Assembly (NCBI GenBank): GCA_000002435.2
Contig: CM018790.1
Direction: 5' to 3' (one strand)
DNA from: Giardia intestinalis
Taxonomy: Eukaryota
Length of the DNA: 64,000 bases
Shown here: positions 7,841-34,783 of the stretch, piece by piece
Numbering within the stretch: position 1 is the stretch's first letter
Layout: the number at the start of each line of letters is the position of its first letter
The notes under the pieces: model-generated
Told to the model about the DNA's origin: nothing
What the model saw: the letters and a program-made list of their open reading frames with translations, nothing else
Databases searched by the model: none
Position numbers and translations under genes: made by a program

Positions 7841-7872
7841 TTCCCACTCAAAAAAGAGGCGACCGGGACTCG

Positions 7873-16800: not shown

Positions 16801-18702
16801 GACGCCTTTGTCTCATCTTCATGTGCAGGGAAGATGCTAGACTTGAGTGGAGTCAGCGGGACTGGGGGAGCCAATGCCCCGGGAGCTTCGAAATTCCGCC
16901 TCACAAACTTAATAGCTAACATTCTGAGTAACAATCCAAATATTAAAGCGTCTCAAGTATCGAGGGACAACGTCCTTCTAGCCGTACATAGCACTTCTTC
17001 CCTGCCTTCCCTGTCTATAGATGCGTCACTAAACAACCACCCACCCATAATTAATCTCAAGAAGATTGAAAGCTTCTATCCAGTTCGTCTTCATTGTGGT
17101 TCCAACGGCTCAATTACAGAAATTCATGCAGTTACTCCAGAGAACTTAATAGTTACCCATAACAAAGCAGCATCTTACGCCACACGCATGTCCGTTCCAA
17201 TTCCTGCTCTTGCTCCTGATTCACGTATAAATACTATCAGGGGGAGCACCTCAGCCTCTTGCGAAACGGTCAATACCTTAATCAAGCACATTGACAGTAT
17301 AAGCAGAGCCATTATCATAGCGCCTTCTTTATCGGACAAGCTCAAGGTATGTACCATACGTCCATATAAAAGGATAAACCCAGTCACTGTCCTGGGAAGA
17401 GAGCTCAAGCGTACGTTCTACTCGTTATTAGAGGGTGAGGAAAACACCTTCCTTTCCATCGACTTCCCAGAGAGTCAGGTCACGCGCATCTCCCTGTCCC
17501 CAATATCGTCTGCTTCTAGCTTCAAGCGAAACTTAATACCTTTCTGTGAGCGCCAGCTGGTGTATGAAGACCTGCACCCGTCCGACTCTACCCCCTTCAA
17601 GCACCAGCTAATACCGGATAAACCCACAATGAACCTGAATCAGTTTGTGTGGAAGCGGCAGCTTGTGACCAATCTTCTATCAGTATACTCTTCGCACGAG
17701 GTTATTATTAAGAGTCTGCAGCTCCAGTGTAGGATGGCTGAGTATGCTGCGAGATCAGGACCCTCTTCGAACCAAATGAATCAGGAGTATACGAATGCTT
17801 ATCAGCAGATGTACACAATCATACACACGATAGCTTATTCCATCAACGACTCGTTCTCATATCGCTTGCATATTAACAACCAAATATGTAACCACCTAAT
17901 TATGCGGTACAACGAAGTGAGTAAGCTATTGAGAGCCCAGCCGTTACTAAAGAATTCTGCGGAAGCCGTTATATCCATGAGTATAGCGCGAGAAAACAAC
18001 GTGAAGACACTCTATCAATCATTTAAAAACGCCGTTCCCCACCTGCTTTTAACTTCATTCGATAAGAAGGTTATACTGTATCTTCTTAAGCATAGGAAGG
18101 CAAAGTATCCCGAGACGATAGAGATAACCCTCAACCAATACCTTCGTGATAAGTACGCTCCAAGGCTTCCGCCCAATCTGTGCAACAGGGAAGCAGCGGT
18201 ACAGTATATTATAGCCCAAAAGTGGAGTGACACATCCTCTAACCATCTAGTTGAGCACCTGAAAATTAAGATTTTGGCACGAATTGATGAGCTGATAGCT
18301 AACAATATGGACACCGAAGAGGCAGAGCGGAGCCTAATACAGCTGCTTCTATATAATCTCAACTGCAATCACATACTGAGCGGAACATTCAGTGGAATAT
18401 TTAACAATTGCACCACGGTGCAGCACGCAGAAGCAACGGTCAATCTCGCCGCTTCTAACTTTGGGTACAGCACCTTCAAGAGACAAGATATTGCACCCTT
18501 GCCCAAAGAGTACTGTCTAACCATCACTGCTAACCGCTGCACCCCTTCTACCCAACAAACAACCCACGATCTGCCACCTGAACCAAGGCACTTTTCTCTC
18601 AAGAAGGACAACCCCCTGGGCCTATGTTCTGCAGAGGAATATTCTCCTGAGATATATGAACCCCCAGAGTCGTATGCTCAATGCTGGAAGCCCCTTTGGT
18701 GA
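7873..18702 (+). CDS. Giant hypothetical protein of about 3610 aa with no recognisable domain.
   Basis: The track ORF 7747..18702 starts at GTG and overlaps the SDR gene on the opposite strand. The first ATG is at 7873 (MHTARRVGELL). It is uninterrupted for 10.8 kb with low-complexity segments. AGTAAAT lies 5 nt after the stop. Confidence 0.6.
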   Translation: MHTARRVGELLNVFYLLEDPRSAAYGRTSPTTLTPPAGIQCSDSQILTRGILNFQGVLERLRIACDSEYSLYSPVTALLEGQEHFRPLGAKQQGSRSDASHERIGRPPRRTTNYVRFYDWHVCSCILSPLELNTFQRALRVLLEVKQPIKITSDISVNPGEWMHPYGSSKPLHIIANMGRQRSSDATLSPLLTLSYQQDAYTAVEEGPEPVKASSLLPAVTTWLKHPPALSQQSSHSLGSAEALSNTGLLSGYFIGSFLSQPLQRNKLLSTRQANAGTASGTADAQLQPAEDCNRMSGDVSLYAYEPLCTSTYSQFGEPTSLSDTFCRQPSDNFNQPDSKTEEEELTPELSSRNICTLQTATADGIAILGEYFKNERLWKQQTAAFLAKRAVMSIEDRLRQRNRLKSSPKTEAVLIEQFWSTVTKAISLRATDDINNEEIMCLVRDSDDNSQNYGHSNHPPEIEHRAAADNTIELSELAPFADPHSPVPPFEPLEVAGPKHIDCESLYCMDGNLIQGVGAISASMPAKPTMQIGSVDHTDTPHLCPLYQNVRQIFRLFSADLSVSLNLLQILFTNLILKFLTLSQLLSLSTSTCWYHTVTFVIRTGRIMAVSIRPQQGSKFLFRARKTTHRQSFLQLRSSYKYLPMDLALLNASYQVHKQQKTPQEGFLARLEITRAAVCRLLYLHPSAQYTPETHSITQLFMLSDQISAHGLILETRFFMEHSLLLNNNTELSTLTEVDVLIKFLTEYLMSEPLFDFGSFNSDILLSEYYLKHQLPGKESCSLTSSHSRSAYDSTLVKPLALEQVSEKKDNRVYDQRDHLNHEAVMLYNQLLSIYKDTLPLFFTKADDSKSLPKRQTELDMVVPYLYYHPNIRHLLPYQAHMLLGVSASYITGNNSFIIRAPRKVGVLRFVISTFLTRSAALQNLRYACAGMHLEGKGVAGLKVPNQIAPSATKKDYSSASLDGMLRREQVHLVLCEEGKVEGFVNMYIRLLFGARVYDVVSREMFGQNVDQFLLDMKSRKLSQEHTHVDDVSSVADHCSGQSSTFYPSSVSPINFMDILGQKMLLDDMESTLFITILSCNPHRNSVPVAEITKGTAFGPLKPRSSNSNVFRCMSSSDCNPATISLPYARRCEASHKPSRANDASYLGMELLDTNPVDSERHVRCVSYVIGPEAENQKTISVPSRIVFNLFDQLHGFQQSSNQVDQPTSIKVFVVTYDALHYNYAYTNGQILSLIKEAKRLDTLVVHRIKDHAPHLPIHMYKADFIVSVESAYLLNKGDDLRQEEETRKKLLQLQSAHSTTLTDKASIKQLQTHDKRATSSVTIYSSAPSHERISQPSCTGDQTVLSEQNDPSPLGTDRQSEQSYILYDTVSAPSSSLTRVIEDTPVHLLFFDLVALNYEPSTPVLTSIYDMKLLDKVLTDPAIALLFLDASKKGSCSIYLHDIHGYGPQIAYRFPNLQHIPLVVPRRDRQYVQDLSPSDYFAHFPLHQQVVDVCNPYSFDVIAPSKRGTTLQSVTTFGGPSYSYPLSYPLRNFSSKFRTSDQSISDDTLKLVTKFISFDSFITDLNASYNALLVQHQIVTAKHGSTRTRHSTNFWSHMGAYMNPVVLTTTMNVSSLDSVASILARSHSIAFGRGSEGAWLRMIDSDLWDSYAYPHTFSSICNSMIRHNARFPSAYKDSLGSSLDMTVVSDIRRSFPEKYLNAMISHLEHLQQLWVRTDGSLFLIPAAPRAAPRSSVLSNYPSDQSTAQTLSHNMSIPFSVYDKLFIDFQKTVETNHNQKSLCFVSSGDSWSNISRSVVYQTRSISLLVAIELIDIFKRLLYRQTPHGKLNNHTPNPMLQASFEAGSFSAKDRVSKPVLDMLASQLNETLVRIETTAKSLLFSAYHSYHTSMCCTTQQLTCLQPMAKLEKMDRLPNLVVFSLLNTIRLTIILPRYTQLVCAQARPKLYGDPCICPHATSTFARIKNKLSYAVELKNKATYVFKIPFKTQIQPKYLSMLHKRPLLQHLYQLDNQNTRNLHDNFFNRIDFSSMRSRIEANNNSISQYVGSLLFFYRMLLSIDANISSSTTSRDTQFVVAFPFAHNFYSSVTMQLLGSAPSGHMLDSFGCLLPLKLVTYSATQHPIYSITREDKLVGGFLIASSTPNDISLYSINCGASAISRGKDSTVPDNPPSLLSAFLNEINPSEEDTNVELLSSMLVMCGRLCCATCPLSSMMYKILANSTSGVLASAVNLIRLLTQEIHTLNVIYTETPVIVAVCFAIRRLFIEFGLYGKRHKPTAEIIKQSYRKYRQEAHKYKFGDDHATLCPMSLQRLNNVTLASAMSNANKSASNVNSSPPLSNDSPRGSNCFNVRYTDASQSSNENQRSKQTINGCLPYKKENSYNRVPLSPPESSIARELIENKGVADRHTPSRVLYISTKEPPRKRGIASKADELGQITASIRSEISAVDAAERANEPSEGSNDLSEFCQSTQPEYASKCTTSLLYSREQGVTGAPTDGVGNMSALLKSHTEERISKPYTLYHDNSDDNEHDIDDAFLRTMGFNFILVLVSTQDTLQMLGAIMGFSLGDCNANIIIPKSNEVLAYITPTTSAATTVSSIGRKNLAYIGLSELSIQSKKSCYDNNIKTTTEAQEPILRNLANEEGKCIVLQTVADFIDSVERFRDAQRIHLFAMPCVQNILIVEAIHRANMAEKIICWSSPPLYRAFDHLLADVAISAELLERLRPVGMPFQDDITSLPEELQYTILNQAGNRPLQQLLVSIVGLIKEFGYNISRFSIFDDDPARFAMPKFDSSMEQESLSTESQIDAEKMSDEFPNNGRHDAEITECDPQPTTEYTCRTEPPEYSFVLDCNHKNNRHTSVLQRCVKHAIREKFQEGFSVGPNAEDFDIRHSLEPLGVEGIQHPEYNSVEKDHGQTDGSIMLHETLAALSSLRGAYSQLTFPLRSDMYQMDLSCCPLNIVKLLSQGVFLSKHSNVSHFDAFVSSSCAGKMLDLSGVSGTGGANAPGASKFRLTNLIANILSNNPNIKASQVSRDNVLLAVHSTSSLPSLSIDASLNNHPPIINLKKIESFYPVRLHCGSNGSITEIHAVTPENLIVTHNKAASYATRMSVPIPALAPDSRINTIRGSTSASCETVNTLIKHIDSISRAIIIAPSLSDKLKVCTIRPYKRINPVTVLGRELKRTFYSLLEGEENTFLSIDFPESQVTRISLSPISSASSFKRNLIPFCERQLVYEDLHPSDSTPFKHQLIPDKPTMNLNQFVWKRQLVTNLLSVYSSHEVIIKSLQLQCRMAEYAARSGPSSNQMNQEYTNAYQQMYTIIHTIAYSINDSFSYRLHINNQICNHLIMRYNEVSKLLRAQPLLKNSAEAVISMSIARENNVKTLYQSFKNAVPHLLLTSFDKKVILYLLKHRKAKYPETIEITLNQYLRDKYAPRLPPNLCNREAAVQYIIAQKWSDTSSNHLVEHLKIKILARIDELIANNMDTEEAERSLIQLLLYNLNCNHILSGTFSGIFNNCTTVQHAEATVNLAASNFGYSTFKRQDIAPLPKEYCLTITANRCTPSTQQTTHDLPPEPRHFSLKKDNPLGLCSAEEYSPEIYEPPESYAQCWKPLW

Positions 18703-23733: not shown

Positions 23734-26103
23734 TCAGGAGCTGGGCAGAACAAGGTCATTGATGATGTCTTCGTTGAAGTCGGCTGCTAGATCAATGCCA
23801 CTACTGCTGCCACTACTCAACTCAGAGTCTTCCTTTTCCATGGCAGCAAAGTCAGGAGCATCTTTGTTGGAGCCCTCATTCGAATCCTCGTTGCTATACT
23901 CCTCGTCCGAATCATAACTATTACTTGATTCATCACTAGGGTCCAGAACCTTGTATCGTTTAGAGTCTCCCAGCTCTTCCTTTTGAAGCACTGTACGCTC
24001 TCCTTTGATGGCTGTGTACTTCTCAAGTAGCTGCGCTAGTGTGGGCGTGACCTTGTGCTGAGTGACACCCTGATTGTACATATTGTTCTCATCTTCACTG
24101 CCAGCTTCTTCATCTGCACCCTGTACGGTAAACCCGTCATCGATAACGCGCTTTCTGATTGCGTTCATAGCAGCCGAGATGTCTCCATCTATAAGGTTCT
24201 TTGTGTGTAACCGCAAATCTAACCGTACAGCAACCATCAGTGCAATGTGTCTGTTAATTGCGCGACGCAATCCATCTAGAATCATGCAGATTTCCATATA
24301 TGTCGGCTTGATCACCGATGTGTAATGGATCTTGTAGTCGTGGCCCAAGAGGCTCTCCTTCTCCTTCATTGAAAGCACAAGATGCTTTAGATAGTGTGTG
24401 GGCTTATACATGAGCTCTGGAAACGAGGGATGATAAAGATAGGGTAGTATGTTTGTACAAAACAAATTCAAGCTTTCGTAGAACACTGTTTTTCTATAAA
24501 TTAGGGTACTAGCAAGCTCCTTGGGGCAAAGAAGCAAGGCATTCAGGCTCAGGAGAGAGCCAGAAAGCGTCCCCTCAGCATTCTCGGCCAGAATACGTGA
24601 CCTCCACTTGCCGATGCTATCTGCATATGAGGAGGTGCCCCCGCCTGCGTTGCTATTGCTGCTGGCAGGTTTGACCGCCTCAATAATCATCTCCATGACA
24701 CTGTGAAGGAGGGGAATGTACAGCGGTTTCTTACCGTCAGGGCCTTCTGCTAACCTTGTCATGGCGGTTAAAATCTTGACACGGCAGGGGAAAAAGCGGA
24801 GAGACGATGGGACGACCTCATTGTAATAGAAGCATATCTCTATATATGGATGTACAAGGTTGGCCAGATTGCAGGCCTTTATCACCATAAGGGAGAGCTC
24901 CACAGAGGCAACAAAGACCCAGCTGCAGAGATCACGATACCGTTGAACGGCATCTTCCTTTATTGCGTTTTTCCCACCCTTTTTCCTGGTGGGATCGTCA
25001 AAGATTGTGCGCTTTTTCCCTTTTCCACTCTTTGTGCTGCTCCTCGTGAAAAGTAATTGGCCTTTCCCAACAAAACAGCATCTAATGTGAGAAATAATCT
25101 GTTTGCTGAAACCTAGAAGCATCTCTGTAAGGATTTTCCGCGGGGCCTTGGTGTATACATGAACAATAAGTTGCCGCTGTATCCCGAGTGCCTTTATCTG
25201 TGTTAGGCGTGGTCGACCGTGCTGGCTGAGATACTTCGACCAAAGAGAACGAACCAGTCTTTGGCACTCCTCCTCGTACTCTGTTGTTATTGTGACAAGT
25301 TCTGTCAGCAGGTGTGTGATAGATAGTGAAAGCAAGGGATACTTACGTTTCTTACCATCCTTCTGCTTCTTCTTTGGTGCAGGACTTGTGAGTGACGCAG
25401 GTTGTGCCTGGTCTTCGGAATCCGAGTCACATGGGTTTCCAGTCTCCTCTTCTGCGCTCAGGGCAGCATATAAGTCTTCTAAAGGTCCAGTAAAGTTATA
25501 GCCATTATAAACTGCATGCACTATATCCAGAAGGCAGACCGTCGATGACAAGGCAATCTCTGCATTTTGATAGAGCACTTGGAGGAAAGTCTCTCTGTCC
25601 TGGGGCTCACAGAGCTCCATTGCCGTGGGGAGCAATCTTGTGATGAGGATGATTAAGTAAGGAAGTACGTACTGCTCCTGTGCACTTGCAGACTCGTACC
25701 GGGTCAGAAGCCGAACCGTGGACGAATACACAGTCCGCATGTGGCCAATCCGCACAGTAGTTGTACTAACTTTGTTGACATTAGAATGATTGGTTGCAAA
25801 GGGGCCTGTGCTGCTGAGCATAGTGGGCAGAAACTGTATGGCATGCAGCGCAAATAGAGCATATGCGGAGTCCTCCACTATCGAATATGCTGTTGTATCT
25901 GGATCTGATCCTGTTACGGCCAAGTAGTACTGAACAATCCGAGTGAGAAGGTCTTCTGAAACTTCGCCTGCCTCAATGGCATCCTTTGCCTCCTTGATGA
26001 CTGCAGTCGCAATGTCTGCCGTTAACACCACCTTCAGTCCACTGTTCTCCTCAGAGTGTTCCAGAGACGAGACCTCGGGGGTGTACGATTCATCGCTGCT
26101 CAT
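23734..26103 (-). CDS. Noc2-family nucleolar complex protein (NOC2L-like) with acidic N- and C-termini.
   Basis: FFPCRVKILTAMTRLAEG...YIPLLHSVMEM resembles human NOC2L FYPLRMHCIRALTLLSG...FIPVLPFILEM. SFPELMYKP resembles GFPELVLP. The protein ends in acidic Ser/Asp/Glu-rich tails. Confidence 0.5.
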   Translation of the reverse strand: MSSDESYTPEVSSLEHSEENSGLKVVLTADIATAVIKEAKDAIEAGEVSEDLLTRIVQYYLAVTGSDPDTTAYSIVEDSAYALFALHAIQFLPTMLSSTGPFATNHSNVNKVSTTTVRIGHMRTVYSSTVRLLTRYESASAQEQYVLPYLIILITRLLPTAMELCEPQDRETFLQVLYQNAEIALSSTVCLLDIVHAVYNGYNFTGPLEDLYAALSAEEETGNPCDSDSEDQAQPASLTSPAPKKKQKDGKKRKYPLLSLSITHLLTELVTITTEYEEECQRLVRSLWSKYLSQHGRPRLTQIKALGIQRQLIVHVYTKAPRKILTEMLLGFSKQIISHIRCCFVGKGQLLFTRSSTKSGKGKKRTIFDDPTRKKGGKNAIKEDAVQRYRDLCSWVFVASVELSLMVIKACNLANLVHPYIEICFYYNEVVPSSLRFFPCRVKILTAMTRLAEGPDGKKPLYIPLLHSVMEMIIEAVKPASSNSNAGGGTSSYADSIGKWRSRILAENAEGTLSGSLLSLNALLLCPKELASTLIYRKTVFYESLNLFCTNILPYLYHPSFPELMYKPTHYLKHLVLSMKEKESLLGHDYKIHYTSVIKPTYMEICMILDGLRRAINRHIALMVAVRLDLRLHTKNLIDGDISAAMNAIRKRVIDDGFTVQGADEEAGSEDENNMYNQGVTQHKVTPTLAQLLEKYTAIKGERTVLQKEELGDSKRYKVLDPSDESSNSYDSDEEYSNEDSNEGSNKDAPDFAAMEKEDSELSSGSSSGIDLAADFNEDIINDLVLPSS

Positions 26104-26270
26104 GGTGGGTCAACCAAATAAATGCAGGATCATGTTATGCAATATATTTTAAAAGAAGAAAAAGTATTTGAATTTAAGCTAAATTGCACGAACTTGCTTT
26201 TTCCTCAAAGCCTAATTACAAGAATCTCTTTGGGTCCCTTCAAATCTCTTCAAGGGCTTTCTGGCCATTC
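26104..26270. promoter_or_regulatory. AT-rich divergent intergenic region between the Noc2-like gene (minus) and the cyclase gene (plus); probable bidirectional initiator region.
   Basis: ATATATTTTAAAAGAAGAAAAAGTATTTGAATTTAAGCTAAATT sits between two divergent ATGs. Confidence 0.4.
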
Positions 26271-29200
26271 ATGCAAAAGAGATGCCTTCGCTGCCAGAGG
26301 ACAAGCTTACTTAGTCAAAAGGTAGACGAAATAACCATTTTCTACATACGCGTGACCATGCAGCTAATGGCCATTCAGGCGATCATCATGCACCTGGTTT
26401 GTCTTCCGCCCGTTTTCACCGACATAAAATCGCCGCTCAAACGCACTATGGTTATGGGGTTCCGCATAGTGGACTCATTTTACTGCACCTTCAGTGTCAT
26501 GTACCTCACCCATATGGACACCCATCTGTTCTGCAGTCTGTGCTTCAACCTGTCAGGCGTTGATGCACTAGTGTCAAAGTGCCTTTGTGTGCATAAGAAG
26601 CTAGGTGCTCTAACAAAGGTGTTCAGTGTAGGGCTTCTGATACGTTGTCTGTTCGCAGGTGTGATTGCAGAACAAGTGTCTCCTTCGTCTATAATTACTT
26701 ACTTGATAGAATTGTGCACTCTTCTCTATTCCATGCTGATTGGTATTGTCATTCCAATTCCTCTTGGCATTAAAATGCTCTATTTTTTATTAAGTCAGTT
26801 TCCAATGACAATCTTATCATACAATCTATCTGGCAACTTGGTAATTGTTCCAACACTAATTGCAACAATACTCCTGGTCTCTCTTATTAGCTACTACTTC
26901 GTGTCGTTTTCGAGAAAAAAGAGCTTCTTTTCCATTGAGACCACGCGAAACATGGTTACTATCCTTGGAGGACAGATCATGAACCTCTTTTTGAATGCTC
27001 TCCCCTCACGGCTAGTTCCCAACGTCATGAGCGGTGTCAGAATGGAGCCAACTGTCTGCTTGGATGTGTGCTTTTCATATATCGCAGTAAGCGACGCTGT
27101 CCCTTCCAACCCGGGTTGCCTGGTTGTCAATGCTAAAAATGCCGACTACCAGAAGATAGACGAGTACACGAAGGGCTTTATGAGCCGGCTCAACCTATAT
27201 TACTGTCTCCTGGACTTTTTGTCTGAGTGCATAGGGGTGCAGAAGATTAAATCGACGTACACCCTTTATATGGTAGCAGCCGGGCTTGAAAGCATTCTAG
27301 ATATTAACTATAAAGGCCCTGTCAGCGGCTACCTACTGGGACAGGATGACGACCAGGAGCCACAAGCAGAGCAATTGTTATTACAAACAGATCCGCTGGC
27401 TTATAAATTGCGAGCCGAGAAGCTAAAATTTAAACAGATAGCCACTTTTTGTTTGGCTGCTAGAATAGCAGGCGAGTCTTTGGGGTTTAACGTCTCAGCC
27501 GGAATCACGAAGGGACCTATCATCACGGGAATGCTCGGTCAGGGACAGGCAAATTGCAACTTTGATGTCTGGGGGGACGTTGTCAATATGGCGGCCCGGA
27601 TTGCCCGCGGCTTCAATTCCGGAGTGTTTATTAAGCAGGATGACTTTTATAGCCAGTTGGATGACTCTATAAGTGGCTCATACTGCCGGGCTGCCATTTC
27701 GGAGAGCAGCCTTGACGACGACTACTCTGTGATAGCCTTGAAAAATGACCTTGAGAAAAAAAGACAAGATGTGTCAAAATACTTACCCAGCGAGGATATC
27801 GTTCGACGCTCACGTGAGATTGTCTATAACCTTCCACCGTGCTATATGTTTGGGATGTCGTTTCCGCGTATGTACAAAGGGAAGGCAGGAGTCACCTGGA
27901 TCACCGAGCTGGTTGAGACCGATTATATGCCCTGGCTCTTGAGGCGCACGTTTAGCTTGGCGTACCGCAATCTTCTGCTGTCATATATTTCAGAGGATAG
28001 TCAGCAGACTCTTGGTTTGCCCGCTAACCCTGCGTCTCCTAGGCACCGCGTGGGCCAGAGCATTAAGCAGGGTGCTAATACCGCAGAAGCAAAGCAATTA
28101 GTTGGCATGGAGCTCTTTGAAGCAATAAAACGGAACCTAGGACTGGAGAAGGATGACAACTCACACATTGATAATGCACTCGCTGTTGTCCGTCAGCGCG
28201 ATCAGCTCGATGCTCTTTTGCTTGAGCTTAAGATGTACGTGTGTGATGAGTCTAAAAACGCTTCTAAATCAAGCGTTGTACCCATCAAAGACGATCATCT
28301 AAAGATCCTCAAGAGCCTTAGCACGCTAGCTACACTAGAATCAAGCAGCGCCACCACAAAGCCATATTCCACACAGTCCCCATGTAAGGATCCTGCCACC
28401 TCATCCTCCTTCCTATCAGATAACAGCCTGAGGAGGGTCATCTACTGTGTTTATTCGGGGGACTATTCGCTCCTTGAGCACGGCGGCGAGTTTATCGATC
28501 TGCGGATCTATTTCGGCCTTACAAATTTTCTTTCGCACGTTAATCTTAGGAATGAACCAATGTTTTCCGGAAAGCACCCTATTATGGCTCGTTTGCAATT
28601 TCCAGCCTCTGCAAACCAATTGAATATACTAGAACCGCGCTCTGACAGCAGCGATGATCTATTTGATGGCATTACAAACTCTCAGCTTATGATCGAAACG
28701 ATCTACAAGGCCACAAACGTGATGGTAGACTCTCAGTTCCATAAATCTCATGTCTCATCATCTATTGCAGATTCCTCTCAGCAGCGAGGCGAGGACAAGT
28801 ACAGAAACACGAGCCTGACCCTTCCAAGCTCGTCCCAGGACCTCCATTCAACTATTCGGCAATCGACTGACGGCATCTCCGGCTCAGCCATAAAATCTAA
28901 GGGAAGGTACCGCAAGCCGAACAATCTGCAGATATCACCGTTGCCTGACAGTGCCCCGAACGCCGTGGAGGAGTACTTCTTTGTGCAACCGGATATCAAG
29001 CCTCTGGCCCTAAGTTCATTCAATACTTCGTCTCTACGAATTCCTGAGACCATCCTAACGCCGCGTGTTCTCACCAACCAGCCCAGGCATGACTTTCACG
29101 ACGTTGTCAAGCTGGGTGTGGAGAAAACTCTGCGTAAGACAGCCCGAAATGTTCTAAAGGGGCAGAAATCCTTCAGCAGAACAGGTTCAAATGGGCTGCT

Positions 29201-32200
29201 GCGTATTGAAGAAGACTCTCGCGAGGTTGAAGGGTCGCTAGGCGGCCAACGATCTGAAATTCTGCAACTCCATGACCTAGGACTTACTAAGAGAGGCGCT
29301 AGTGTGAGCAGAGAGACATCTGGAGATGATACGGAGTATTCCCTTGCCAGTATTACGCGACGGTATGCTTCAGGAGAGAGCATAGAGCTCCAGCCCACTG
29401 TGGAGTATACCAAATCAAAGTTGGGAAAGCAGACAGTAGCTGTTGAGAAATCTGCCTCCGAAGAAGTCGGGTATGGGGATGTACAGCACTTTAAGGACTT
29501 TACCTTGATGGATCTGCCCCATCAATCTGGCTTTACTACGTTTGATGACCAGCTAGAAGATAACACGCTGCAATCTACATTGCGATCTTTTGATAAGATG
29601 AATTATTCCTTCAAGGATCTCCTCCCGCCGATTCAAGCTCCTTCAGACAACATGAAAGCTCTTCGGAACAAAACTGAAGCCTCACATGAGAACTCTTGTC
29701 CCGCACTAGTTCCAATAAGACCACTGATTGAAGCGGATACGGAATCTGACAACATTTCTGTGTCTAATGATGACATACACTTAACCGCCGCACAGGGCCT
29801 GTCTCTAGCAACGCCAACAGCTGGAGATCAAAGAGGATCGCCTTTGCCGCACTTTTCTTCGACAACCGGAACTCGTCCTCTGGCACGCTCAAATTCGCAG
29901 CTCCACTGGCAGTCAGAGGATAATGCCAAGACGGCCCCTGCTTTCTGTAGTCGCGCAGACTCCACAGACTCGATAGAACCGACGCACCACCAGTTTTCTG
30001 ATGCGGCTAGGTTCAGCATCTCTAAACCTGCCCTTCAAAAGAGTACCGGCTCCATCAAAGGCGATTCGTTCGCCAGTTCCCTGTTGCAATGCAAGCAAAC
30101 GGGAAAGATTCAGCAGCGTGCCTCGTCTCTCTCTCGCACTCCTCAGCAACAACCGCACCGTATCTATTCCCAGCGATCAACCAGTGTGTCTGCCGAACAA
30201 CGGGTACAGAACTTCTTCACCTTCTTTAATACAAGTGCAACAGCGACCCCGACACCAACCAAGGTCGACGCCGTCAAGAATGCGCTTATTCTGGATTATA
30301 CTCAACTCGAAAGCATGACGGCTCCACAGAATGGTGGCCGGCATGGCCGCTCCGTTTCTTTTCTAGCAAGGCCCAAGTCTTCCTGCCAGTCACGTGACAA
30401 TCAGTCAACTGGGTCCAGCCGGCCTCTGTCTACGCTCACCATGCAGAGAAGCCAGTCCACCCTTGAGAGCTGGAACGACCCAACCAGGGGCACGGTGTAT
30501 AGCAAGACGCCTGACTTCACAGAGCAAGATGCGTCCTTCGATCCGTCGACTACCTGTTCCCGGAACAATCTTGTGGCACAGGAGCTATGCATAGACAAGC
30601 CAGAAAACGACGAGTGCTTTCAGTTTGAGGATTGTGACCGCACTAGTACTAGTATTACTGTGTGTACTAATGGGTATAATGACAGACAAGTCTGCGCATA
30701 CCCCCTTTCACAGGAAAGAATTCCCGTAGGGCTACTTAGCTTTCAAATTCTCTTTGGCGTTCTACTACATATGAGGAGGCAGATTGAGTTACTGTGCAGC
30801 ATCTCCAACTTGATCAGTAAAAGGTGCACTGAGGAGATAGGTTTTGCATTCATGGTCACTGGTATGATGCGTTCTCAGAATTATTGTATTGATTTCTTCG
30901 TCATACTCTTCATGTACATAACTTTTTCAATCATTTTGCGCGTAACAAAATTTAATACTATGGCTGTTATTTTCTTTTTTAACTCGAAAGTCTATTTTTC
31001 CAGTATAAAATTTATATACTGGACGATGCTGGGCATAAATATCCTCTGGCAAATCTCCTTCAGCATCTACTTACGATACTATGATGGAGTTAGGAGAGCT
31101 GTCAAAATTGATTTCGATAAGGCCACTGAACGTGGAGAAAATAGCGACAACCTCGGCCGAGATCTTCTTTTCAACAACGTGGTGATCGGGGTTCGGATTC
31201 TGGTCACGCTCACCACTGTTGTGTGCATCTACCTGATCCAATGTTTCTATTCTATTGGATTCTACTCCGCGCTGAATAATTCCATTAACGAAGAACCAGA
31301 CGCGATGGCGCTATTGATATTTTTCATGCTACCATTTCAGTTCTTCTACGTTGTGACTATCCTCTCTACCACAAGCAACTCCGTCTTCTTCATAAGCTAT
31401 AACTTCATTGCTCTCATGGTAGCAACCCTAGTCTTGGTCATAGCATCCTTCTGTGGGCAGATTGAGGCAGTCCTGGTGAACCTTATCATGTTGATCGCTG
31501 CCTGCATCTACTCTAGCACAAAGCTGAGGATTCGCATCAGCATCCTGGATTGGAAGGCATCTGTCGCCAACCAGATCAAGACGTACAAGGAGAGGCTCAA
31601 CCCCATCCTTCCTGGGATGACAATAGATGTCATGATTGCTGCAAAGCAACCAGAAGCTATCTCGTCAACAGAGGGCGTTTTTCAGTTTATAGAGTGCTAT
31701 ATGCGTGATCTTAACCATATGATATGTCTTGCAGAGCTGGAGAAGGCGTCCCAAATACATAGAGTGGGGTCTACTCCCATCACAGACGCCCCTCATAGCC
31801 GTGTCCCGCCCATAGATTTCTTTGCACTTAAACTAGAGCGTGACCTGCTACCGAACACATCTCCATTTATCTCATCAGACGCTGCGCATGACCCAGATGA
31901 GCCTGGCCTCATCGTGGAGACTGGCCAAAAGAACAAGCACTACTGGGAAGACTTTTGCCAGCAGGCACGTGAGACAATAGAGAGCCGTAGCAAGGAGCTC
32001 TATAAAGGATTTGTATATAACATGCACCAGTACTTGCACTTTAGTGATCCACGCTATCTTTCATACGACAGGCCGATCGTCTATTTTGCTCGAGTGGGGT
32101 ACCTGTCCCTCGACATCGTCAATTTCACAAAGCTGAGCTCAGAGCATGACGCTAAGAGCATCCTTCGGTTCCTTGGAGACCTGTTTTCTGAATTTGACAA

Positions 32201-32843
32201 GAGGATTGATCGCGCGCCGCAGCTGAAACAGATAAAGTCTATTGGTGATGCGTATGAGGTAATGGGGCTTCCAGGCATACTGAAGAAGTATGGTAATGCA
32301 GGAAAGAGGAGGAACAAAGACTCATATGGGCAAAAGGAGGACGATAGAATTCTCCAGCTCTATGATGGTCTGCTTTTGCTGGTCATGGCGGGCTTTGGAT
32401 TCATTGAGGATTGCATAGATGTCAGTAGGAAGCACTTCAGTGACAAGGTAGATTACTTGGGGTTGCGTGTCGGGGTTTGCACGGGCGTGGCCTTTGGTTC
32501 ACTCCTTGGCAGCAAGCAATTCAGATTCGACGTCTTTGGCAACGTCCCCGAAGAGGCGGATTTGATTCAGAGCGAGGCCTCCATTAACGCTATCTTCATA
32601 TCATCGGATGTAAAGAAGATTTTGGAAGAGGGAGAGAGCAAGTGGAAGTCGCGATTCCATGAGTACCAGGTAGAGCAGGAGGCGTTGGGAGTGCAGGCGC
32701 TCGACATCCAACACGAGCACCTTTCCTTTACATTTGTTAAGCACGTGAAGGACTCTGTCACTATGTACGAGGTACAGTCCATTAATGAATCACAGAAGCT
32801 CGATCATCTATATTTTCTTTCAAAACCACTCGATCTATCGTAA
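26271..32843 (+). CDS. Membrane class III nucleotidyl (adenylyl/guanylyl) cyclase. It has two transmembrane clusters, two cyclase homology domains and a roughly 900-aa disordered Ser/Thr-rich linker.
   Basis: The track ORF starts at TTG 26184; the first ATG is at 26271 (26358 is also possible). Hydrophobic cluster 1 is at about 26358..26960. CHD1 is at about 27050..27640 (IKSTYTLYMVAAGL; FDVWGDVVNMAARI). Hydrophobic cluster 2 is at about 30720..31530. CHD2 is at about 32070..32600 (LSLDIVNFTKL; IKSIGDAYEVMG; FDVFGNV). Confidence 0.75.
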   Translation: MQKRCLRCQRTSLLSQKVDEITIFYIRVTMQLMAIQAIIMHLVCLPPVFTDIKSPLKRTMVMGFRIVDSFYCTFSVMYLTHMDTHLFCSLCFNLSGVDALVSKCLCVHKKLGALTKVFSVGLLIRCLFAGVIAEQVSPSSIITYLIELCTLLYSMLIGIVIPIPLGIKMLYFLLSQFPMTILSYNLSGNLVIVPTLIATILLVSLISYYFVSFSRKKSFFSIETTRNMVTILGGQIMNLFLNALPSRLVPNVMSGVRMEPTVCLDVCFSYIAVSDAVPSNPGCLVVNAKNADYQKIDEYTKGFMSRLNLYYCLLDFLSECIGVQKIKSTYTLYMVAAGLESILDINYKGPVSGYLLGQDDDQEPQAEQLLLQTDPLAYKLRAEKLKFKQIATFCLAARIAGESLGFNVSAGITKGPIITGMLGQGQANCNFDVWGDVVNMAARIARGFNSGVFIKQDDFYSQLDDSISGSYCRAAISESSLDDDYSVIALKNDLEKKRQDVSKYLPSEDIVRRSREIVYNLPPCYMFGMSFPRMYKGKAGVTWITELVETDYMPWLLRRTFSLAYRNLLLSYISEDSQQTLGLPANPASPRHRVGQSIKQGANTAEAKQLVGMELFEAIKRNLGLEKDDNSHIDNALAVVRQRDQLDALLLELKMYVCDESKNASKSSVVPIKDDHLKILKSLSTLATLESSSATTKPYSTQSPCKDPATSSSFLSDNSLRRVIYCVYSGDYSLLEHGGEFIDLRIYFGLTNFLSHVNLRNEPMFSGKHPIMARLQFPASANQLNILEPRSDSSDDLFDGITNSQLMIETIYKATNVMVDSQFHKSHVSSSIADSSQQRGEDKYRNTSLTLPSSSQDLHSTIRQSTDGISGSAIKSKGRYRKPNNLQISPLPDSAPNAVEEYFFVQPDIKPLALSSFNTSSLRIPETILTPRVLTNQPRHDFHDVVKLGVEKTLRKTARNVLKGQKSFSRTGSNGLLRIEEDSREVEGSLGGQRSEILQLHDLGLTKRGASVSRETSGDDTEYSLASITRRYASGESIELQPTVEYTKSKLGKQTVAVEKSASEEVGYGDVQHFKDFTLMDLPHQSGFTTFDDQLEDNTLQSTLRSFDKMNYSFKDLLPPIQAPSDNMKALRNKTEASHENSCPALVPIRPLIEADTESDNISVSNDDIHLTAAQGLSLATPTAGDQRGSPLPHFSSTTGTRPLARSNSQLHWQSEDNAKTAPAFCSRADSTDSIEPTHHQFSDAARFSISKPALQKSTGSIKGDSFASSLLQCKQTGKIQQRASSLSRTPQQQPHRIYSQRSTSVSAEQRVQNFFTFFNTSATATPTPTKVDAVKNALILDYTQLESMTAPQNGGRHGRSVSFLARPKSSCQSRDNQSTGSSRPLSTLTMQRSQSTLESWNDPTRGTVYSKTPDFTEQDASFDPSTTCSRNNLVAQELCIDKPENDECFQFEDCDRTSTSITVCTNGYNDRQVCAYPLSQERIPVGLLSFQILFGVLLHMRRQIELLCSISNLISKRCTEEIGFAFMVTGMMRSQNYCIDFFVILFMYITFSIILRVTKFNTMAVIFFFNSKVYFSSIKFIYWTMLGINILWQISFSIYLRYYDGVRRAVKIDFDKATERGENSDNLGRDLLFNNVVIGVRILVTLTTVVCIYLIQCFYSIGFYSALNNSINEEPDAMALLIFFMLPFQFFYVVTILSTTSNSVFFISYNFIALMVATLVLVIASFCGQIEAVLVNLIMLIAACIYSSTKLRIRISILDWKASVANQIKTYKERLNPILPGMTIDVMIAAKQPEAISSTEGVFQFIECYMRDLNHMICLAELEKASQIHRVGSTPITDAPHSRVPPIDFFALKLERDLLPNTSPFISSDAAHDPDEPGLIVETGQKNKHYWEDFCQQARETIESRSKELYKGFVYNMHQYLHFSDPRYLSYDRPIVYFARVGYLSLDIVNFTKLSSEHDAKSILRFLGDLFSEFDKRIDRAPQLKQIKSIGDAYEVMGLPGILKKYGNAGKRRNKDSYGQKEDDRILQLYDGLLLLVMAGFGFIEDCIDVSRKHFSDKVDYLGLRVGVCTGVAFGSLLGSKQFRFDVFGNVPEEADLIQSEASINAIFISSDVKKILEEGESKWKSRFHEYQVEQEALGVQALDIQHEHLSFTFVKHVKDSVTMYEVQSINESQKLDHLYFLSKPLDLS
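27050..27640 (+). other. Cyclase homology domain 1 (C2-like: Asn/Arg of NMAARI present, metal-binding Asp positions not conserved).
   Basis: DVWGDVVNMAARI matches the class III cyclase consensus (YDVWGDTVNVASRM). The position of the second metal Asp reads T in IKSTYTLYM. Confidence 0.6.
32070..32600 (+). other. Cyclase homology domain 2 (C1-like: both metal-binding Asp present).
   Basis: LDIVNFT and IKSIGDAYEV carry the canonical Asp residues. The Asn/Arg region is degenerate (FGNVPEEADL). Confidence 0.6.
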
Positions 32844-32848
32844 AAATT

Positions 32849-34783
32849 ATGACGAGTAAGTCTTCGTTTCGAGCTGAGTGTCTGTTAGACACGCGGGACT
32901 TTCAGGCCATAGCGCATCGCCAGGCAGTGGTGCTGGGCGAGCCCATCCCTTCCTTAGATGAAGGTCTCGAGCGCATTAAAGCAAACATTTTTTTGAATAC
33001 CGAGAAGCCGTCAGAGATCCCCACAGAGAGGCTCATCCGCTACCTCTCTGACGTGTCGCAATGCCTTCAGGCCTTTGTTACTAACTCTACACGGGCTCCA
33101 CAGGTTCTTGCCGGGACGGTAAGACACGTTGACTTCTTTGATAAACTCTATGCATTTCTGCGACTCTTGACTGAGAATGGCCGATATCATGAGCTCCTTG
33201 AAGTTGATGCCGATTCCACGTGTTCTTTCCTGCTTTCTGTTGCCGCTTTTCAGAGTGCATTTGCTCGTGAGCCCATCCTTGGCAATCCGGTGACTAGGAG
33301 TTCTTTCTTGTTTAGTGCACAGTCCTTCTTGCTTACTATCTCTTCTGTCTTGTGCCATTTTCCGCTCAATGTGGACCAGCCCATGTCACACATTAGTGTC
33401 ATCATTGGGGATGGAACCGGAAAACTGGAGGTGGCGCACGTGTTAGTTGAGCATGTGCTTATAGTTTCGTCTGCGTTCAATCTATCTGACTCTGTCTCCG
33501 TACCTGCGCAGTTTTTCCAATGGCTTAACAGAGTACTAGTCCACGTAACACCTCTCTGGTCTGTCGAGAACCTGGAGCACCTTCAGCTATGGCACCAATC
33601 AAGACAGTCCGCGGCGGAGGCTTCGTCCCCAGCGGTACACTTGACAGATGCCTTTCCGTGCATGCTTTTCTCGAGCTTACTGCGCGTCTCCCTGTTTCTG
33701 TATAGTCGGCGAGCTGTGGGCTTGAGCACAGAGACCATTGCGCTCACCATATCTAGTGCTTGTGACCTGGTAGCACAGGTTCTGAACACGATTCAAGCGC
33801 TTCGTAATTTGGCCGCTGACGCGCTGGGTTCTGTCGAGCCTGGACGACGCTCAGCTTGTTCTAGATTGTCTCCAGTTAGCTTTCTTGAAGATGCACAGCT
33901 CTTTTCATTTTTCAGCAAGCTCTGTCTGTGGTGTGTGCGACTGTTGGATTGTCTCATCTCACAGATTTTCAAGCCAGATGGGTTCTCTGCGTGCACATAC
34001 ACAGGTCCACACGGTGATGAGTCACCAAAAGCAAGCGACGCTCCCAGACTTGGCTTGGACGTCTTTACGGAGATGTTCTTCCAGCACAATGGTTGGTCTC
34101 TTCTGATGCAGCTCTTGCACTACACAACTGACGGCATTCTTGACGATCATATGGAACCGCCCGTCACTGAGCTCCTTAGTCAGATTACGCACTGTGCTGA
34201 TATGGGTTGGATCAAAGATCACGGCTACCTCTGCTCAGGCTTTTCAACAAGGCTGGCATATATCCTTGTCAAGAGCCATAGCCGAAATGCAAAGCTTGCA
34301 GCGTTCTACACCCTTTGCAACCTCGTCATCGACCAGGGATATGCGTTCGTGGCGGTAGAGCACGTTATAAGCGCATGTATTAAGAACTTCAAATCCACAA
34401 TTTTGACCGTTGTTTACGAAGCGAACCGCCTCCTTGTGCTTCTGCTCCAACTGGGCAAAGTGGAGGACAGGGATGTCTATCAGACTGCCCTCCTACACAT
34501 GATCAACCAAAAGATAACTTCAAAGCTCATTCGATCTTTCATGATGACTGCCCAGTCTGCACAAACCCATCAGACCCTTCCCAAGGAGTTGCGGAAGCTG
34601 GCATCGATGCAGCTCAAGCTTTTCTCCGAACTCATAGAGTGTGGGAAAGAACACGAAGAGTTTATTACACCTATATTCGAGACGAGAGACGAGCTTTCTA
34701 TAGCAATCGAAGAGCTTGACGTGCGAGGTCCAGAAAGTCTCTCCGTTAGTTGCAGACAGCTCATTGATTTAATTTATATGTGA
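32849..34783 (+). CDS. Hypothetical alpha-helical protein of 644 aa.
   Basis: The ATG at 32849 lies only 5 nt after the cyclase stop. The 3' end overlaps the convergent gene 34761..40043 by 23 nt. Confidence 0.55.
   Translation: MTSKSSFRAECLLDTRDFQAIAHRQAVVLGEPIPSLDEGLERIKANIFLNTEKPSEIPTERLIRYLSDVSQCLQAFVTNSTRAPQVLAGTVRHVDFFDKLYAFLRLLTENGRYHELLEVDADSTCSFLLSVAAFQSAFAREPILGNPVTRSSFLFSAQSFLLTISSVLCHFPLNVDQPMSHISVIIGDGTGKLEVAHVLVEHVLIVSSAFNLSDSVSVPAQFFQWLNRVLVHVTPLWSVENLEHLQLWHQSRQSAAEASSPAVHLTDAFPCMLFSSLLRVSLFLYSRRAVGLSTETIALTISSACDLVAQVLNTIQALRNLAADALGSVEPGRRSACSRLSPVSFLEDAQLFSFFSKLCLWCVRLLDCLISQIFKPDGFSACTYTGPHGDESPKASDAPRLGLDVFTEMFFQHNGWSLLMQLLHYTTDGILDDHMEPPVTELLSQITHCADMGWIKDHGYLCSGFSTRLAYILVKSHSRNAKLAAFYTLCNLVIDQGYAFVAVEHVISACIKNFKSTILTVVYEANRLLVLLLQLGKVEDRDVYQTALLHMINQKITSKLIRSFMMTAQSAQTHQTLPKELRKLASMQLKLFSELIECGKEHEEFITPIFETRDELSIAIEELDVRGPESLSVSCRQLIDLIYM

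What the first reader, a model, noticed from the sequence alone, without database searches (positions are those of the whole stretch)
26271..32843. Membrane nucleotidyl cyclase with mammalian-like topology (TM cluster, CHD, TM cluster, CHD), a roughly 900-aa disordered linker and apparently swapped domain roles
Two class III cyclase homology domains are present. The first (FDVWGDVVNMAARI) keeps the transition-state Asn/Arg but has no Asp at the second metal position (IKSTYTLYM), so it is C2-like. The second keeps both metal-binding Asp (LDIVNFT, IKSIGDAYE) but has a degenerate Asn/Arg region, so it is C1-like. This is a pseudo-heterodimeric catalytic pair in the opposite order to mammalian tmACs. 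The two halves are separated by a huge Ser/Thr/Gln-rich linker (about 27700..30700) that could carry regulatory phosphosites. Substrate (ATP vs GTP) cannot be decided by eye.
Basis: partly seen in the sequence, partly recalled or inferred. Interest (0 to 1): 0.6.

Follow-up and report, generated by a model that had tools for sequence, protein, structure and literature searches.

The report
Giardia adenylate cyclase AC2 (gNC2)
This is the already known and experimentally studied Giardia membrane adenylate cyclase AC2, whose two catalytic half-domains sit in the reverse order to the human enzymes, an arrangement already described in other single-celled eukaryotes.

Summary
Window 26271..32843 (+) is one 2190-aa ORF, 100% identical to Giardia intestinalis WB 'Nucleotidyl cyclase' XP_001708765.1. 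Published primers, morpholino and guide RNA for AC2/gNC2 (GL50803_16599) match it exactly.

Both cyclase homology domains pass Pfam PF00211 on their own (35.9 and 79 bits; cut-off 21.9). CHD1 has lost both metal aspartates (Y270, T331) but keeps K327, D432, N439 and R443. CHD2 keeps D1948 and D1993 but has E2094 and L2098 at the Asn/Arg positions. That gives one complete ATP-type (K/D) active site, with domain roles swapped relative to mammalian tmACs.

The swap is not unusual. It is conserved in Spironucleus and in an unidentified 3890-aa homologue; two Hexamita copies keep the domain order but have lost catalytic residues. It occurs in 40 of 126 two-CHD proteins among the closest database relatives, and it is published for alveolate guanylate cyclases.

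The linker is about 930 aa and Ser/Thr/Gln-rich. Its length varies widely (about 320 to 2700 aa in relatives).

AC2 is published as needed for, and able to start, cAMP-driven encystation.

Verdict: correct reading of a known gene, with low novelty.

The parts
26271..32843 (+). Complete ORF of Giardia AC2/gNC2 (GL50803_16599), 2190 aa plus TAA stop
   Evidence: 100% identity to XP_001708765.1/A8B947; published AC2 primers and guide g4159 match exactly, and the published morpholino is antisense to the start-codon sequence (read off the sequence)..
26331..26912 (+). Membrane block 1, aa ~21-214. Six predicted TM helices.
   Evidence: Hydropathy peaks. AF2 helices at 12-43, 55-82, 96-135, 138-158, 163-187 and 192-214. 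The count of six also rests on my positive-inside reading of the loops. No dedicated TM predictor was available.
26934..27020 (+). Juxtamembrane helix before CHD1 with a transducer-like motif (IMNLFLNALPSRLVP), aa 222-250
   Evidence: AF2 helix 222-243. The NALPS motif is conserved in all diplomonad homologues.
27033..27926 (+). CHD1, C2-like, aa ~255-552: core 255-465, insertion 466-520, conserved hairpin with YKGKAG 521-552. Key codons: Y270 27078-80, K327 27249-51, T331 27261-63, D432 27564-66, N439 27585-87, R443 27597-99, K536 27876-78.
   Evidence: Pfam 35.9 bits. Alignments to Cya and AC2-C2. K327, D432, N439 and R443 are invariant in a 56-sequence CHD alignment. AF2 pLDDT is 85-94 in the core. 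KGKG hairpin conserved in 5 of 6 aligned homologues, degenerate in one Hexamita copy. Codons checked.
27927..30719 (+). Inter-half linker, aa ~553-1483. It is Ser/Thr/Gln-rich, poorly conserved and length-variable. No Pfam family and no tandem repeats.
   Evidence: AF2 pLDDT <50 for most of aa 553-770.
28434..28520 (+). Giardia-specific conserved island inside the linker, aa 722-750 (VIYCVYSGDYSLLEHGGEFIDLRIYFGL). Function unknown.
   Evidence: Invariant G730-L735, E740, F741, D743 and L744 across G. intestinalis assemblages and G. muris. Not alignable in Spironucleus or Hexamita.
30720..31520 (+). Membrane block 2, aa ~1484-1750. Seven to eight hydrophobic segments; six TM helices (1538-1749) is the most consistent topology.
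   Evidence: Hydropathy. AF2 helices. The six-TM call is my inference from positive-inside counting and the need for both flanks to be cytosolic.
31533..31715 (+). Conserved post-membrane element, aa 1755-1815: a transducer-like motif (ERLNPILPGMTIDVM) followed by the invariant STEGVFQFIExYMRDL
   Evidence: 96% identity between assemblages and 50% to G. muris. The LP.(I/M)(T/S)I(D/E) motif is conserved in diplomonads.
31716..32075 (+). Variable ~120-aa insertion between the transducer-like element and CHD2, aa 1816-1935
   Evidence: Low pLDDT and low conservation. Shorter in Spironucleus and Hexamita.
32076..32795 (+). CHD2, C1-like, aa ~1936-2175. Key codons: D1948 32112-14, K1989 32235-37, D1993 32247-49, R2066 32466-68, D2087 32529-31, E2094 32550-52, L2098 32562-64.
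   Evidence: Pfam 79 bits. Alignments to AC9-C1 and Cya. AF2 pLDDT about 90. Foldseek TM-score (target-normalised) 0.82 to 1azs_A, the AC5 C1 chain. Codons checked.

Best explanation
The ORF is Giardia intestinalis AC2 (gNC2, GL50803_16599), a class III transmembrane adenylate cyclase. Its architecture is membrane block, CHD1, ~930-aa linker, membrane block, CHD2.

The two CHDs most likely associate head-to-tail, as C1 and C2 do in animal tmACs, to give one complete active site. CHD2 supplies the two metal-binding aspartates (D1948, D1993) and the beta4 arginine (R2066). CHD1 supplies the adenine-selecting Lys/Asp pair (K327, D432), the transition-state Asn/Arg (N439, R443) and the KGK lysine (K536/K538). 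The pseudo-symmetric second site is dead: it has Y270 and T331 with E2094 and L2098.

Domain roles are therefore inverted relative to mammalian tmACs, but the same as in alveolate P4-ATPase guanylate cyclases and many other protist cyclases. ATP is the substrate.

Shown here: gene identity, both CHDs, the residue pattern and its conservation. From the literature: plasma-membrane/ER location, requirement for encystation-induced cAMP, and sufficiency on overexpression. Inferred: intramolecular CHD1/CHD2 pairing, six plus six TM helices, and a flexible linker.
For: - **Identity.** Searches give 100% identity. Searches show the AC2 primers and guide g4159 of PMC10636121 matching exactly at 26271, 32814-32840 and 30426-30445; the morpholino is antisense to the start-codon sequence.
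- **Two CHDs above the Pfam cut-off.**
- **Complementary residue loss.** Searches give alignments to Cya, AC2-C2 and AC9-C1. One search shows K327, D432, N439 and R443 invariant across 56 CHDs. One search shows K1989 and D1993 invariant and D1948 in at least 90%. One search gives the patterns '---SDNR' for CHD1 and 'DKDRDEL' for CHD2.
- **Conservation.** The pattern is the same in G. muris, Spironucleus and P0146, so both domains are under selection.
- **C1/C2 assignment.**
- **Function.** PMC10636121 reports that AC2 knockdown lowers cAMP and encystation, overexpression raises cAMP and CWP1, and AC2 is predicted to make cAMP only.
Against: - No structure or model of the CHD1/CHD2 pair could be made.
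- The first metal position of CHD1 (Y270) was placed by eye and by the diplomonad alignment. The HMMs did not align beta1 of CHD1.
- CHD1 is very diverged (35.9 bits) and carries two insertions.
- The KGK hairpin assignment rests on a motif and a low-confidence AF2 hairpin. A bacterial CHD profile did not reach it.
- Catalysis by the recombinant protein, and its substrate preference, have not been measured as far as I could find.
Confidence: 0.85

Rival explanations
1. The active site is formed between chains: CHD1 of one AC2 molecule pairs with CHD2 of another, giving a domain-swapped homodimer. The ~930-aa linker would exist because the halves do not need to meet within one chain.
For: The linker is long and length-variable, so nothing in the sequence forces intramolecular pairing. 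Single-CHD membrane cyclases such as Rv1625c work as homodimers, and Rv1625c is the top structural match of the N-terminal half.
Against: All known two-CHD membrane cyclases with solved structures pair within the chain (AC9, AC5, AC8; established knowledge). The chemistry of the site would be the same, so this is a variant of the best explanation rather than an alternative.
Confidence: 0.1
2. The enzyme is a guanylate cyclase or a dual-specificity cyclase, like the alveolate and Dictyostelium two-CHD enzymes with the same inverted order.
For: Inverted-order enzymes described so far are mostly GCs. Many inverted-order relatives carry non-K/D residues at the specificity positions (e.g. 'DEKKSNR'). 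The paralogue AC1 is reported to make both cAMP and cGMP.
Against: The specificity positions in the domain that supplies them are Lys327 and Asp432, the canonical ATP pair, invariant in the Giardia orthologues; D432 is kept across all diplomonad homologues and the IK motif holding K327 is visible in them by eye. The GC-type Glu/Cys pair is absent. AC2 knockdown and overexpression change cAMP (PMC10636121).
Confidence: 0.04
3. CHD1 is a decayed, non-catalytic remnant that serves only as scaffold or regulator. Catalysis comes from CHD2 homodimers.
For: CHD1 scores weakly (35.9 bits), has lost both metal aspartates, and carries insertions.
Against: A CHD2 homodimer would lack the transition-state Asn/Arg, having E2094 and L2098. 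The four residues CHD2 lacks or needs from its partner are the ones kept invariant in CHD1 across the Giardia orthologues, Spironucleus and P0146 and across a 56-sequence CHD alignment; one Hexamita copy has lost the Arg. That pattern is hard to explain for a remnant.
Confidence: 0.03

Closest known systems
Giardia lamblia AC2 / gNC2 (GL50803_16599). Saraullo et al. 2017 Biochem J (not held; cited from memory and); Shih et al. 2023 Nat Commun, PMC10636121.
   Same: It is this gene: 100% protein identity and exact primer/guide matches. The calculated mass of 245.7 kDa fits the '246 kDa, two class III CHDs' description that I recall from the 2017 abstract.
   Different: Nothing differs. What I could not find in the held papers is an explicit statement of the inverted C1/C2 roles, the extension of CHD1 to aa 552, or the linker-length comparison across diplomonads. 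These may be in the 2017 paper, which I could not read.
Mammalian transmembrane adenylate cyclases (AC1-AC9), e.g. AC9 (7pd4), AC5 C1 / AC2 C2 (1azs, 1cjk)
   Same: Two membrane blocks each followed by a CHD. A pseudo-heterodimer with one complete and one degenerate site. The K/D ATP specificity pair. A juxtamembrane helix with a transducer-like LP motif before each CHD.
   Different: The order is inverted: the metal-binding domain is C-terminal. The inter-half linker is about 930 aa. There is a ~120-aa insertion between the second transducer-like element and CHD2. Giardia has no G proteins to regulate it (PMC10636121). Sequence identity is only about 15-22%.
Alveolate P4-ATPase guanylate cyclases (Toxoplasma ATPaseP-GC, Plasmodium GCalpha/beta, Paramecium and Tetrahymena GC). 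PMC6592433; Linder et al. 1999 EMBO J.
   Same: Two 6-TM blocks with two CHDs in the inverted order. The first CHD gives the nucleotide and transition-state residues and the second gives the two aspartates.
   Different: No P-type ATPase domain is present; Pfam finds only PF00211. The specificity residues are K/D (ATP) rather than E/A-type (GTP). The linker is much longer.
Diplomonad orthologues: Spironucleus salmonicida 'Nucleotidyl cyclase' (XP_067765220.1, 1412 aa) and Hexamita inflata 'Nucleotidyl cyclase' (1255 and 1069 aa)
   Same: The same CHD1-like then CHD2-like order. Tyr at the first metal position of CHD1. The KGKG hairpin (degenerate in the 1069-aa Hexamita copy) and transducer-like motifs.
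   Different: The linker is about 320-440 aa instead of about 930. The two Hexamita copies examined have Asn at the first metal position of CHD2, so they may be inactive.

Membership tests
Class III nucleotidyl cyclase (Pfam PF00211) | A CHD recognised by the family HMM above the curated cut-off | tested here: met
   CHD1 35.9 bits and CHD2 79.0 bits, each scanned alone, against a cut-off of 21.9. CHD fold confirmed by AF2 plus Foldseek.
Class III nucleotidyl cyclase (Pfam PF00211) | A complete catalytic set across the dimer: two metal Asp, a substrate pair, and transition-state Asn and Arg | tested here: met
   D1948 and D1993 from CHD2; K327, D432, N439 and R443 from CHD1. The set is complete only in the heterodimer.
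tmAC-type pseudo-heterodimeric membrane cyclase (2 x [TM block + CHD]) | Two membrane blocks, each followed by a CHD, in one chain | tested here: met
   Hydropathy and AF2 helices. Full-length Rv1625c and AC9 are the top Foldseek matches of the N-terminal half.
tmAC-type pseudo-heterodimeric membrane cyclase (2 x [TM block + CHD]) | Six TM helices in each block | tested here: inconclusive
   Block 1 has six long helices. Block 2 has 7-8 hydrophobic segments, and six is my positive-inside inference. No TM predictor was available.
tmAC-type pseudo-heterodimeric membrane cyclase (2 x [TM block + CHD]) | Mammalian order: the metal-binding C1 first, the Lys/Asp/Asn/Arg-bearing C2 second | tested here: not met
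   The order is inverted.
tmAC-type pseudo-heterodimeric membrane cyclase (2 x [TM block + CHD]) | Regulation by heterotrimeric G proteins or forskolin | not testable with these tools
   PMC10636121 states that Giardia lacks GPCRs and heterotrimeric G proteins.
Inverted-order two-CHD protist cyclases (alveolate GCs and relatives) | The first CHD carries Asn/Arg and lacks the metal Asp; the second carries both Asp and lacks Asn/Arg | tested here: met
   The same pattern occurs in 40 of 126 two-CHD relatives, including Planoprotostelium, Phalansterium, Ceratiomyxa, Diphylleia, Leptophrys and Cantina. Definition taken from PMC6592433.
Alveolate P4-ATPase guanylate cyclase | An N-terminal P4-ATPase (flippase-like) domain | tested here: not met
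   Only PF00211 is found in the whole protein. The N-terminus goes straight into membrane block 1.
Alveolate P4-ATPase guanylate cyclase | GTP-type specificity residues | tested here: not met
   K327/D432 are ATP-type.
Giardia AC2/gNC2 (GL50803_16599) | Sequence identity with the named gene | tested here: met

The most novel reading that the evidence does not exclude
The membrane blocks, the two conserved transducer-like elements and the expanded linker (with its Giardia-specific island at aa 722-750) may together be the sensor that couples plasma-membrane cholesterol or fluidity to cAMP synthesis, in an organism with no G proteins. The dead second site (Y270/T331 with K1989/D2087/E2094/L2098) may be an allosteric pocket. 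The linker expansion, about 320 aa in Hexamita, 930 in G. intestinalis and 2700 in an unidentified relative, would then be lineage-specific regulatory innovation rather than a neutral spacer.
Probability: 0.2. Interest if true: 0.6.

Novelty: already known. Interest (0 to 1): 0.22.

Why it matters
AC2 is the enzyme that starts cAMP-driven encystation in Giardia, which is the transmission step of a common human parasite. How cholesterol depletion activates it is still stated to be open (PMC10636121).

The residue map here says which mutations should kill activity: D1948 and D1993 in CHD2, and K327, D432, N439 and R443 in CHD1. It also shows where CHD1 really ends (aa 552) and which segments are conserved enough to be candidate regulatory elements (aa 222-250, 722-750, 1755-1815). 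That helps construct design and inhibitor work.

It is not a new kind of enzyme. The inverted order is widespread in protists.

Tried and rejected
- **AlphaFold of the CHD1-CHD2 pair.** The dimer could not be modelled, so the two halves were modelled separately.
- **Word-index homologue search with the CHD2 alignment.** It returned only Giardia fragments and one weak hit.
- **Word-index search with the CHD1 alignment.** It returned only distant bacterial single-CHD cyclases at 48 bits or less. These were used to deepen the alignments for modelling.
- **Bacterial CHD profile on aa 521-552.** The profile did not reach the proposed KGK hairpin of CHD1. That assignment rests on the diplomonad alignment.
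- **Saraullo et al. 2017 (Biochem J).** The paper is not held, and searches for 'gNC2' and 'gNC1' found no other useful text.
- **Repeats in the linker.** None were found.
- **PKA-type [RK][RK]x[ST] sites in the linker.** None were found. I therefore have no support for the specific idea of PKA feedback phosphorylation.
- **Charge-hydropathy test of disorder.** The result was borderline and not decisive.
- **Pfam on the linker.** Nothing was found.

Full report
**1. What is at the coordinates**

Window 26271..32843 (+) is one uninterrupted ORF. The first in-frame ATG is at 26271. A TTG at 26184 opens the frame mechanically, and the stop is TAA at 32841-32843. The product is 2190 aa and 245.7 kDa.

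It is 100% identical over its full length to 'Nucleotidyl cyclase' of Giardia intestinalis/duodenalis WB (XP_001708765.1, KAE8302330.1, UniProt A8B947).

Supplementary Data 1 of Shih et al. 2023 (PMC10636121) lists reagents for AC2 = GL50803_16599, and three were searched in the window:
- The overexpression forward primer (atgCAAAAGAGATGCCTTCGCTGCC) matches at 26271-26295.
- The reverse primer matches at 32814-32840 on the minus strand, directly before the stop.
- Guide g4159 matches at 30426-30445.

The published morpholino is antisense to the start-codon sequence (read off the sequence). The gene is therefore AC2, also called gNC2. The window is Giardia assemblage A.

**2. The two cyclase homology domains**

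Pfam PF00211 is the only family found in the whole protein (1.8e-31, two stretches). Scanned separately:
- aa 1-520 gives 35.9 bits (E 7.2e-9, aa 303-445).
- aa 1481-2190 gives 79.0 bits (E 4.4e-22).
- The curated cut-off is 21.9. The middle 960 aa give nothing.

AlphaFold2 models of the two halves give pLDDT 85-94 for the CHD1 core and about 90 for CHD2. Foldseek against the PDB returns only class III cyclase domains.

**3. Catalytic residues**

phmmer alignments to the mycobacterial homodimeric cyclase Cya/Rv1625c, which has the full residue set, and to rat AC2-C2 and AC9-C1, give the following map (codons checked).

| Position | CHD1 | CHD2 |
|---|---|---|
| First metal Asp | Tyr270 (DVCFSYIAVSD) | Asp1948 |
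| Substrate Lys | Lys327 | Lys1989 |
| Second metal Asp | Thr331 (IKSTYTLYM vs IKVSGDSYM / IKTIGSTYM) | Asp1993 |
| beta4 Arg | Asn407 | Arg2066 |
| Substrate Asp | Asp432 | Asp2087 |
| Transition-state Asn | Asn439 | Glu2094 (Asn in G. muris) |
| Transition-state Arg | Arg443 | Leu2098 (Ala in G. muris) |

In a 56-sequence alignment with canonical bacterial CHDs, K327, D432, N439 and R443 are invariant columns. In the CHD2 alignment, K1989, D1993 and D2087 are invariant and D1948 is present in at least 90%.

Together the two domains give exactly one complete site and one dead site. The Lys/Asp pair in the domain that supplies base recognition indicates ATP.

One caveat applies. The Tyr270 assignment comes from reading the beta1 strand and from the diplomonad alignment. 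The HMMs did not align that strand.

**4. Which domain is C1-like**

- phmmer with the whole protein pairs CHD2 with AC9 residues 391-541 (C1) and CHD1 with AC9 1161-1199 (C2).
- On two animal AC3 proteins, a CHD1 profile scores higher on the second CHD (22.6 and 16.9 bits, against 11.1 and 9.5). A CHD2 profile scores higher on the first CHD (60 and 56 bits, against 19.5 and 31.8).
- Among mammalian catalytic-core crystal chains, the CHD2 model's best match is 1azs_A, the C1 chain (TM 0.82). For the CHD1 model only C2 chains appear in the top 50.

The swap is real.

**5. Is the swap unusual? No**

An exhaustive profile search with CHD2 found intermediate relatives far above the generic CHD background: Spironucleus salmonicida and Hexamita inflata 'Nucleotidyl cyclase', and an unidentified 3890-aa protein. 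All have a CHD1-like domain first and a CHD2-like domain last. All have Tyr at the first metal position of CHD1.

I classified 126 two-CHD proteins (120 among the 150 best hits, plus six diplomonad sequences) by residues at the metal and Asn/Arg positions:
- 57 have the mammalian order.
- 40 have the Giardia order.

The latter include Amoebozoa (Planoprotostelium, Phalansterium, Ceratiomyxa), Diphylleia, Leptophrys and Cantina.

The inverted order is explicitly described for Toxoplasma ATPaseP-GC. That paper cites Linder et al. [quoted passage not shown] From memory, Dictyostelium GCA is another case.

**6. Membrane blocks**

Hydropathy shows two blocks, aa ~21-214 and ~1484-1750.

The AF2 model of the first half has six long helices (12-43, 55-82, 96-135, 138-158, 163-187, 192-214), followed by a juxtamembrane helix (222-243) that leads into CHD1. 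Full-length Rv1625c and AC9 are its best structural matches.

The second block has seven or eight hydrophobic segments. Counting positive charges in the loops, and requiring both flanks to be cytosolic, six TM helices (aa 1538-1749) is the most consistent reading. Segment 1484-1501 is weakly hydrophobic and carries arginines in G. muris. This is my inference. No TM predictor was available.

**7. The linker**

CHD1 does not end there.

After an insertion (aa 466-520) comes LPPCYMFGMSFPRMYKGKAGVTWITEL. In Spironucleus, one Hexamita copy and P0146 this aligns as P.Y.FG......YKGKG.I..(I/T)E (degenerate in the other Hexamita copy), with a much shorter insertion. That is the canonical C-terminal CHD hairpin with the KGKG lysine. 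AF2 draws a hairpin there (530-547), but at low confidence, and a bacterial CHD profile did not reach it.

The linker proper is therefore about aa 553-1483. Its properties:
- It has no Pfam family and no repeats.
- It has 37.5% S+T+Q+P+N, against 19-25% in the domains.
- From aa 760 onward it is only 4-24% identical to G. muris, with many gaps.
- One island (aa 722-750, GDYSLLEHGGEF) is conserved within Giardia only.
- The soluble linker is about 320-440 aa in Hexamita and Spironucleus, about 660 in G. muris, about 930-980 in G. intestinalis, and about 2700 in the unidentified homologue.

Disorder is likely but not demonstrated. A charge-hydropathy test is borderline, and only aa 553-770 were modelled, with pLDDT <50 for most of that stretch. 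I found no PKA-type consensus sites in the linker.

**8. Function and mechanism**

Published work (PMC10636121) reports the following:
- AC2 is at the plasma membrane and ER and associates with lipid rafts.
- CRISPRi or morpholino knockdown lowers cAMP, blocks the bile-induced PKA response, and reduces MYB2, cyst wall proteins and cysts.
- Overexpression raises cAMP and starts encystation without stimulus.
- Giardia has no GPCRs or heterotrimeric G proteins.

The residue analysis here fits an ATP-specific enzyme with a single heterodimeric site. Rivals are weakly supported: pairing between chains, GTP use, and a vestigial CHD1. Details are in the rival explanations section.

**9. Verdict**

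However, this is a known, named and functionally studied gene. Its inverted domain order is a known and widespread protist variant.

From memory, the 2017 Biochem J abstract already describes gNC2 as a 246-kDa transmembrane protein with two class III CHDs, and the calculated mass here is 245.7 kDa. The modest additions from this work are the explicit residue map, the true end of CHD1, conservation of the architecture across diplomonads, and the large variation in linker length.

Noticed in passing
P0146 (protein from the representative search; 3890 aa, on a 69-kb Logan contig): An unidentified organism encodes a clear AC2 homologue with the same inverted CHD pattern ('---TDNR' / 'DKDRDAL'), but with a soluble linker of about 2700 aa between the halves.
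   Followed up: partly
P0147 and P0148 (Hexamita inflata 'Nucleotidyl cyclase'): Both Hexamita copies examined have Asn instead of Asp at the first metal position of CHD2. One also has Ile at the CHD1 Arg position. They may be catalytically dead paralogues. Hexamita has several copies.
   Followed up: no
window 31665..31712 (aa 1799-1814, STEGVFQFIECYMRDL): A segment between the second transducer-like motif and CHD2 is invariant between G. intestinalis and G. muris. Read by eye, it resembles a vestigial CHD beta1 strand (vTvlFaDIvgFT), with Glu1808 at the metal-Asp position. AF2 draws it as a helix at low confidence. Its meaning is unknown.
   Followed up: partly
window 32841..32860: The next ORF (32849..34783, 644 aa, no Pfam family) starts 5 nt after the AC2 stop codon. 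An AGTAAG, resembling the Giardia polyadenylation signal AGTRAAY (from memory), lies at 32855-32860, inside that next ORF.
   Followed up: no
window 26104..26270: A 167-bp divergent intergenic region lies between AC2 and a minus-strand Noc2-family gene (23734..26103, PF03715 at 56 bits). The AT-rich stretch (about 26135-26185) is 90-130 nt upstream of the AC2 ATG, which is far for Giardia, where 5' UTRs are usually very short (from memory).
   Followed up: no
window 7747..18702 (+) and 49430..63115 (-): Two giant ORFs of 3651 and 4561 aa have no Pfam family at E <= 1e-4.
   Followed up: partly
window 32235..32237 and 32529..32531 (K1989, D2087 in CHD2): CHD2 keeps its own Lys/Asp pair facing the dead second site, as mammalian C1 does. 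With Y270 and T331 this makes a conserved non-catalytic pocket that could bind a ligand, by analogy to the forskolin site. This is speculative.
   Followed up: no
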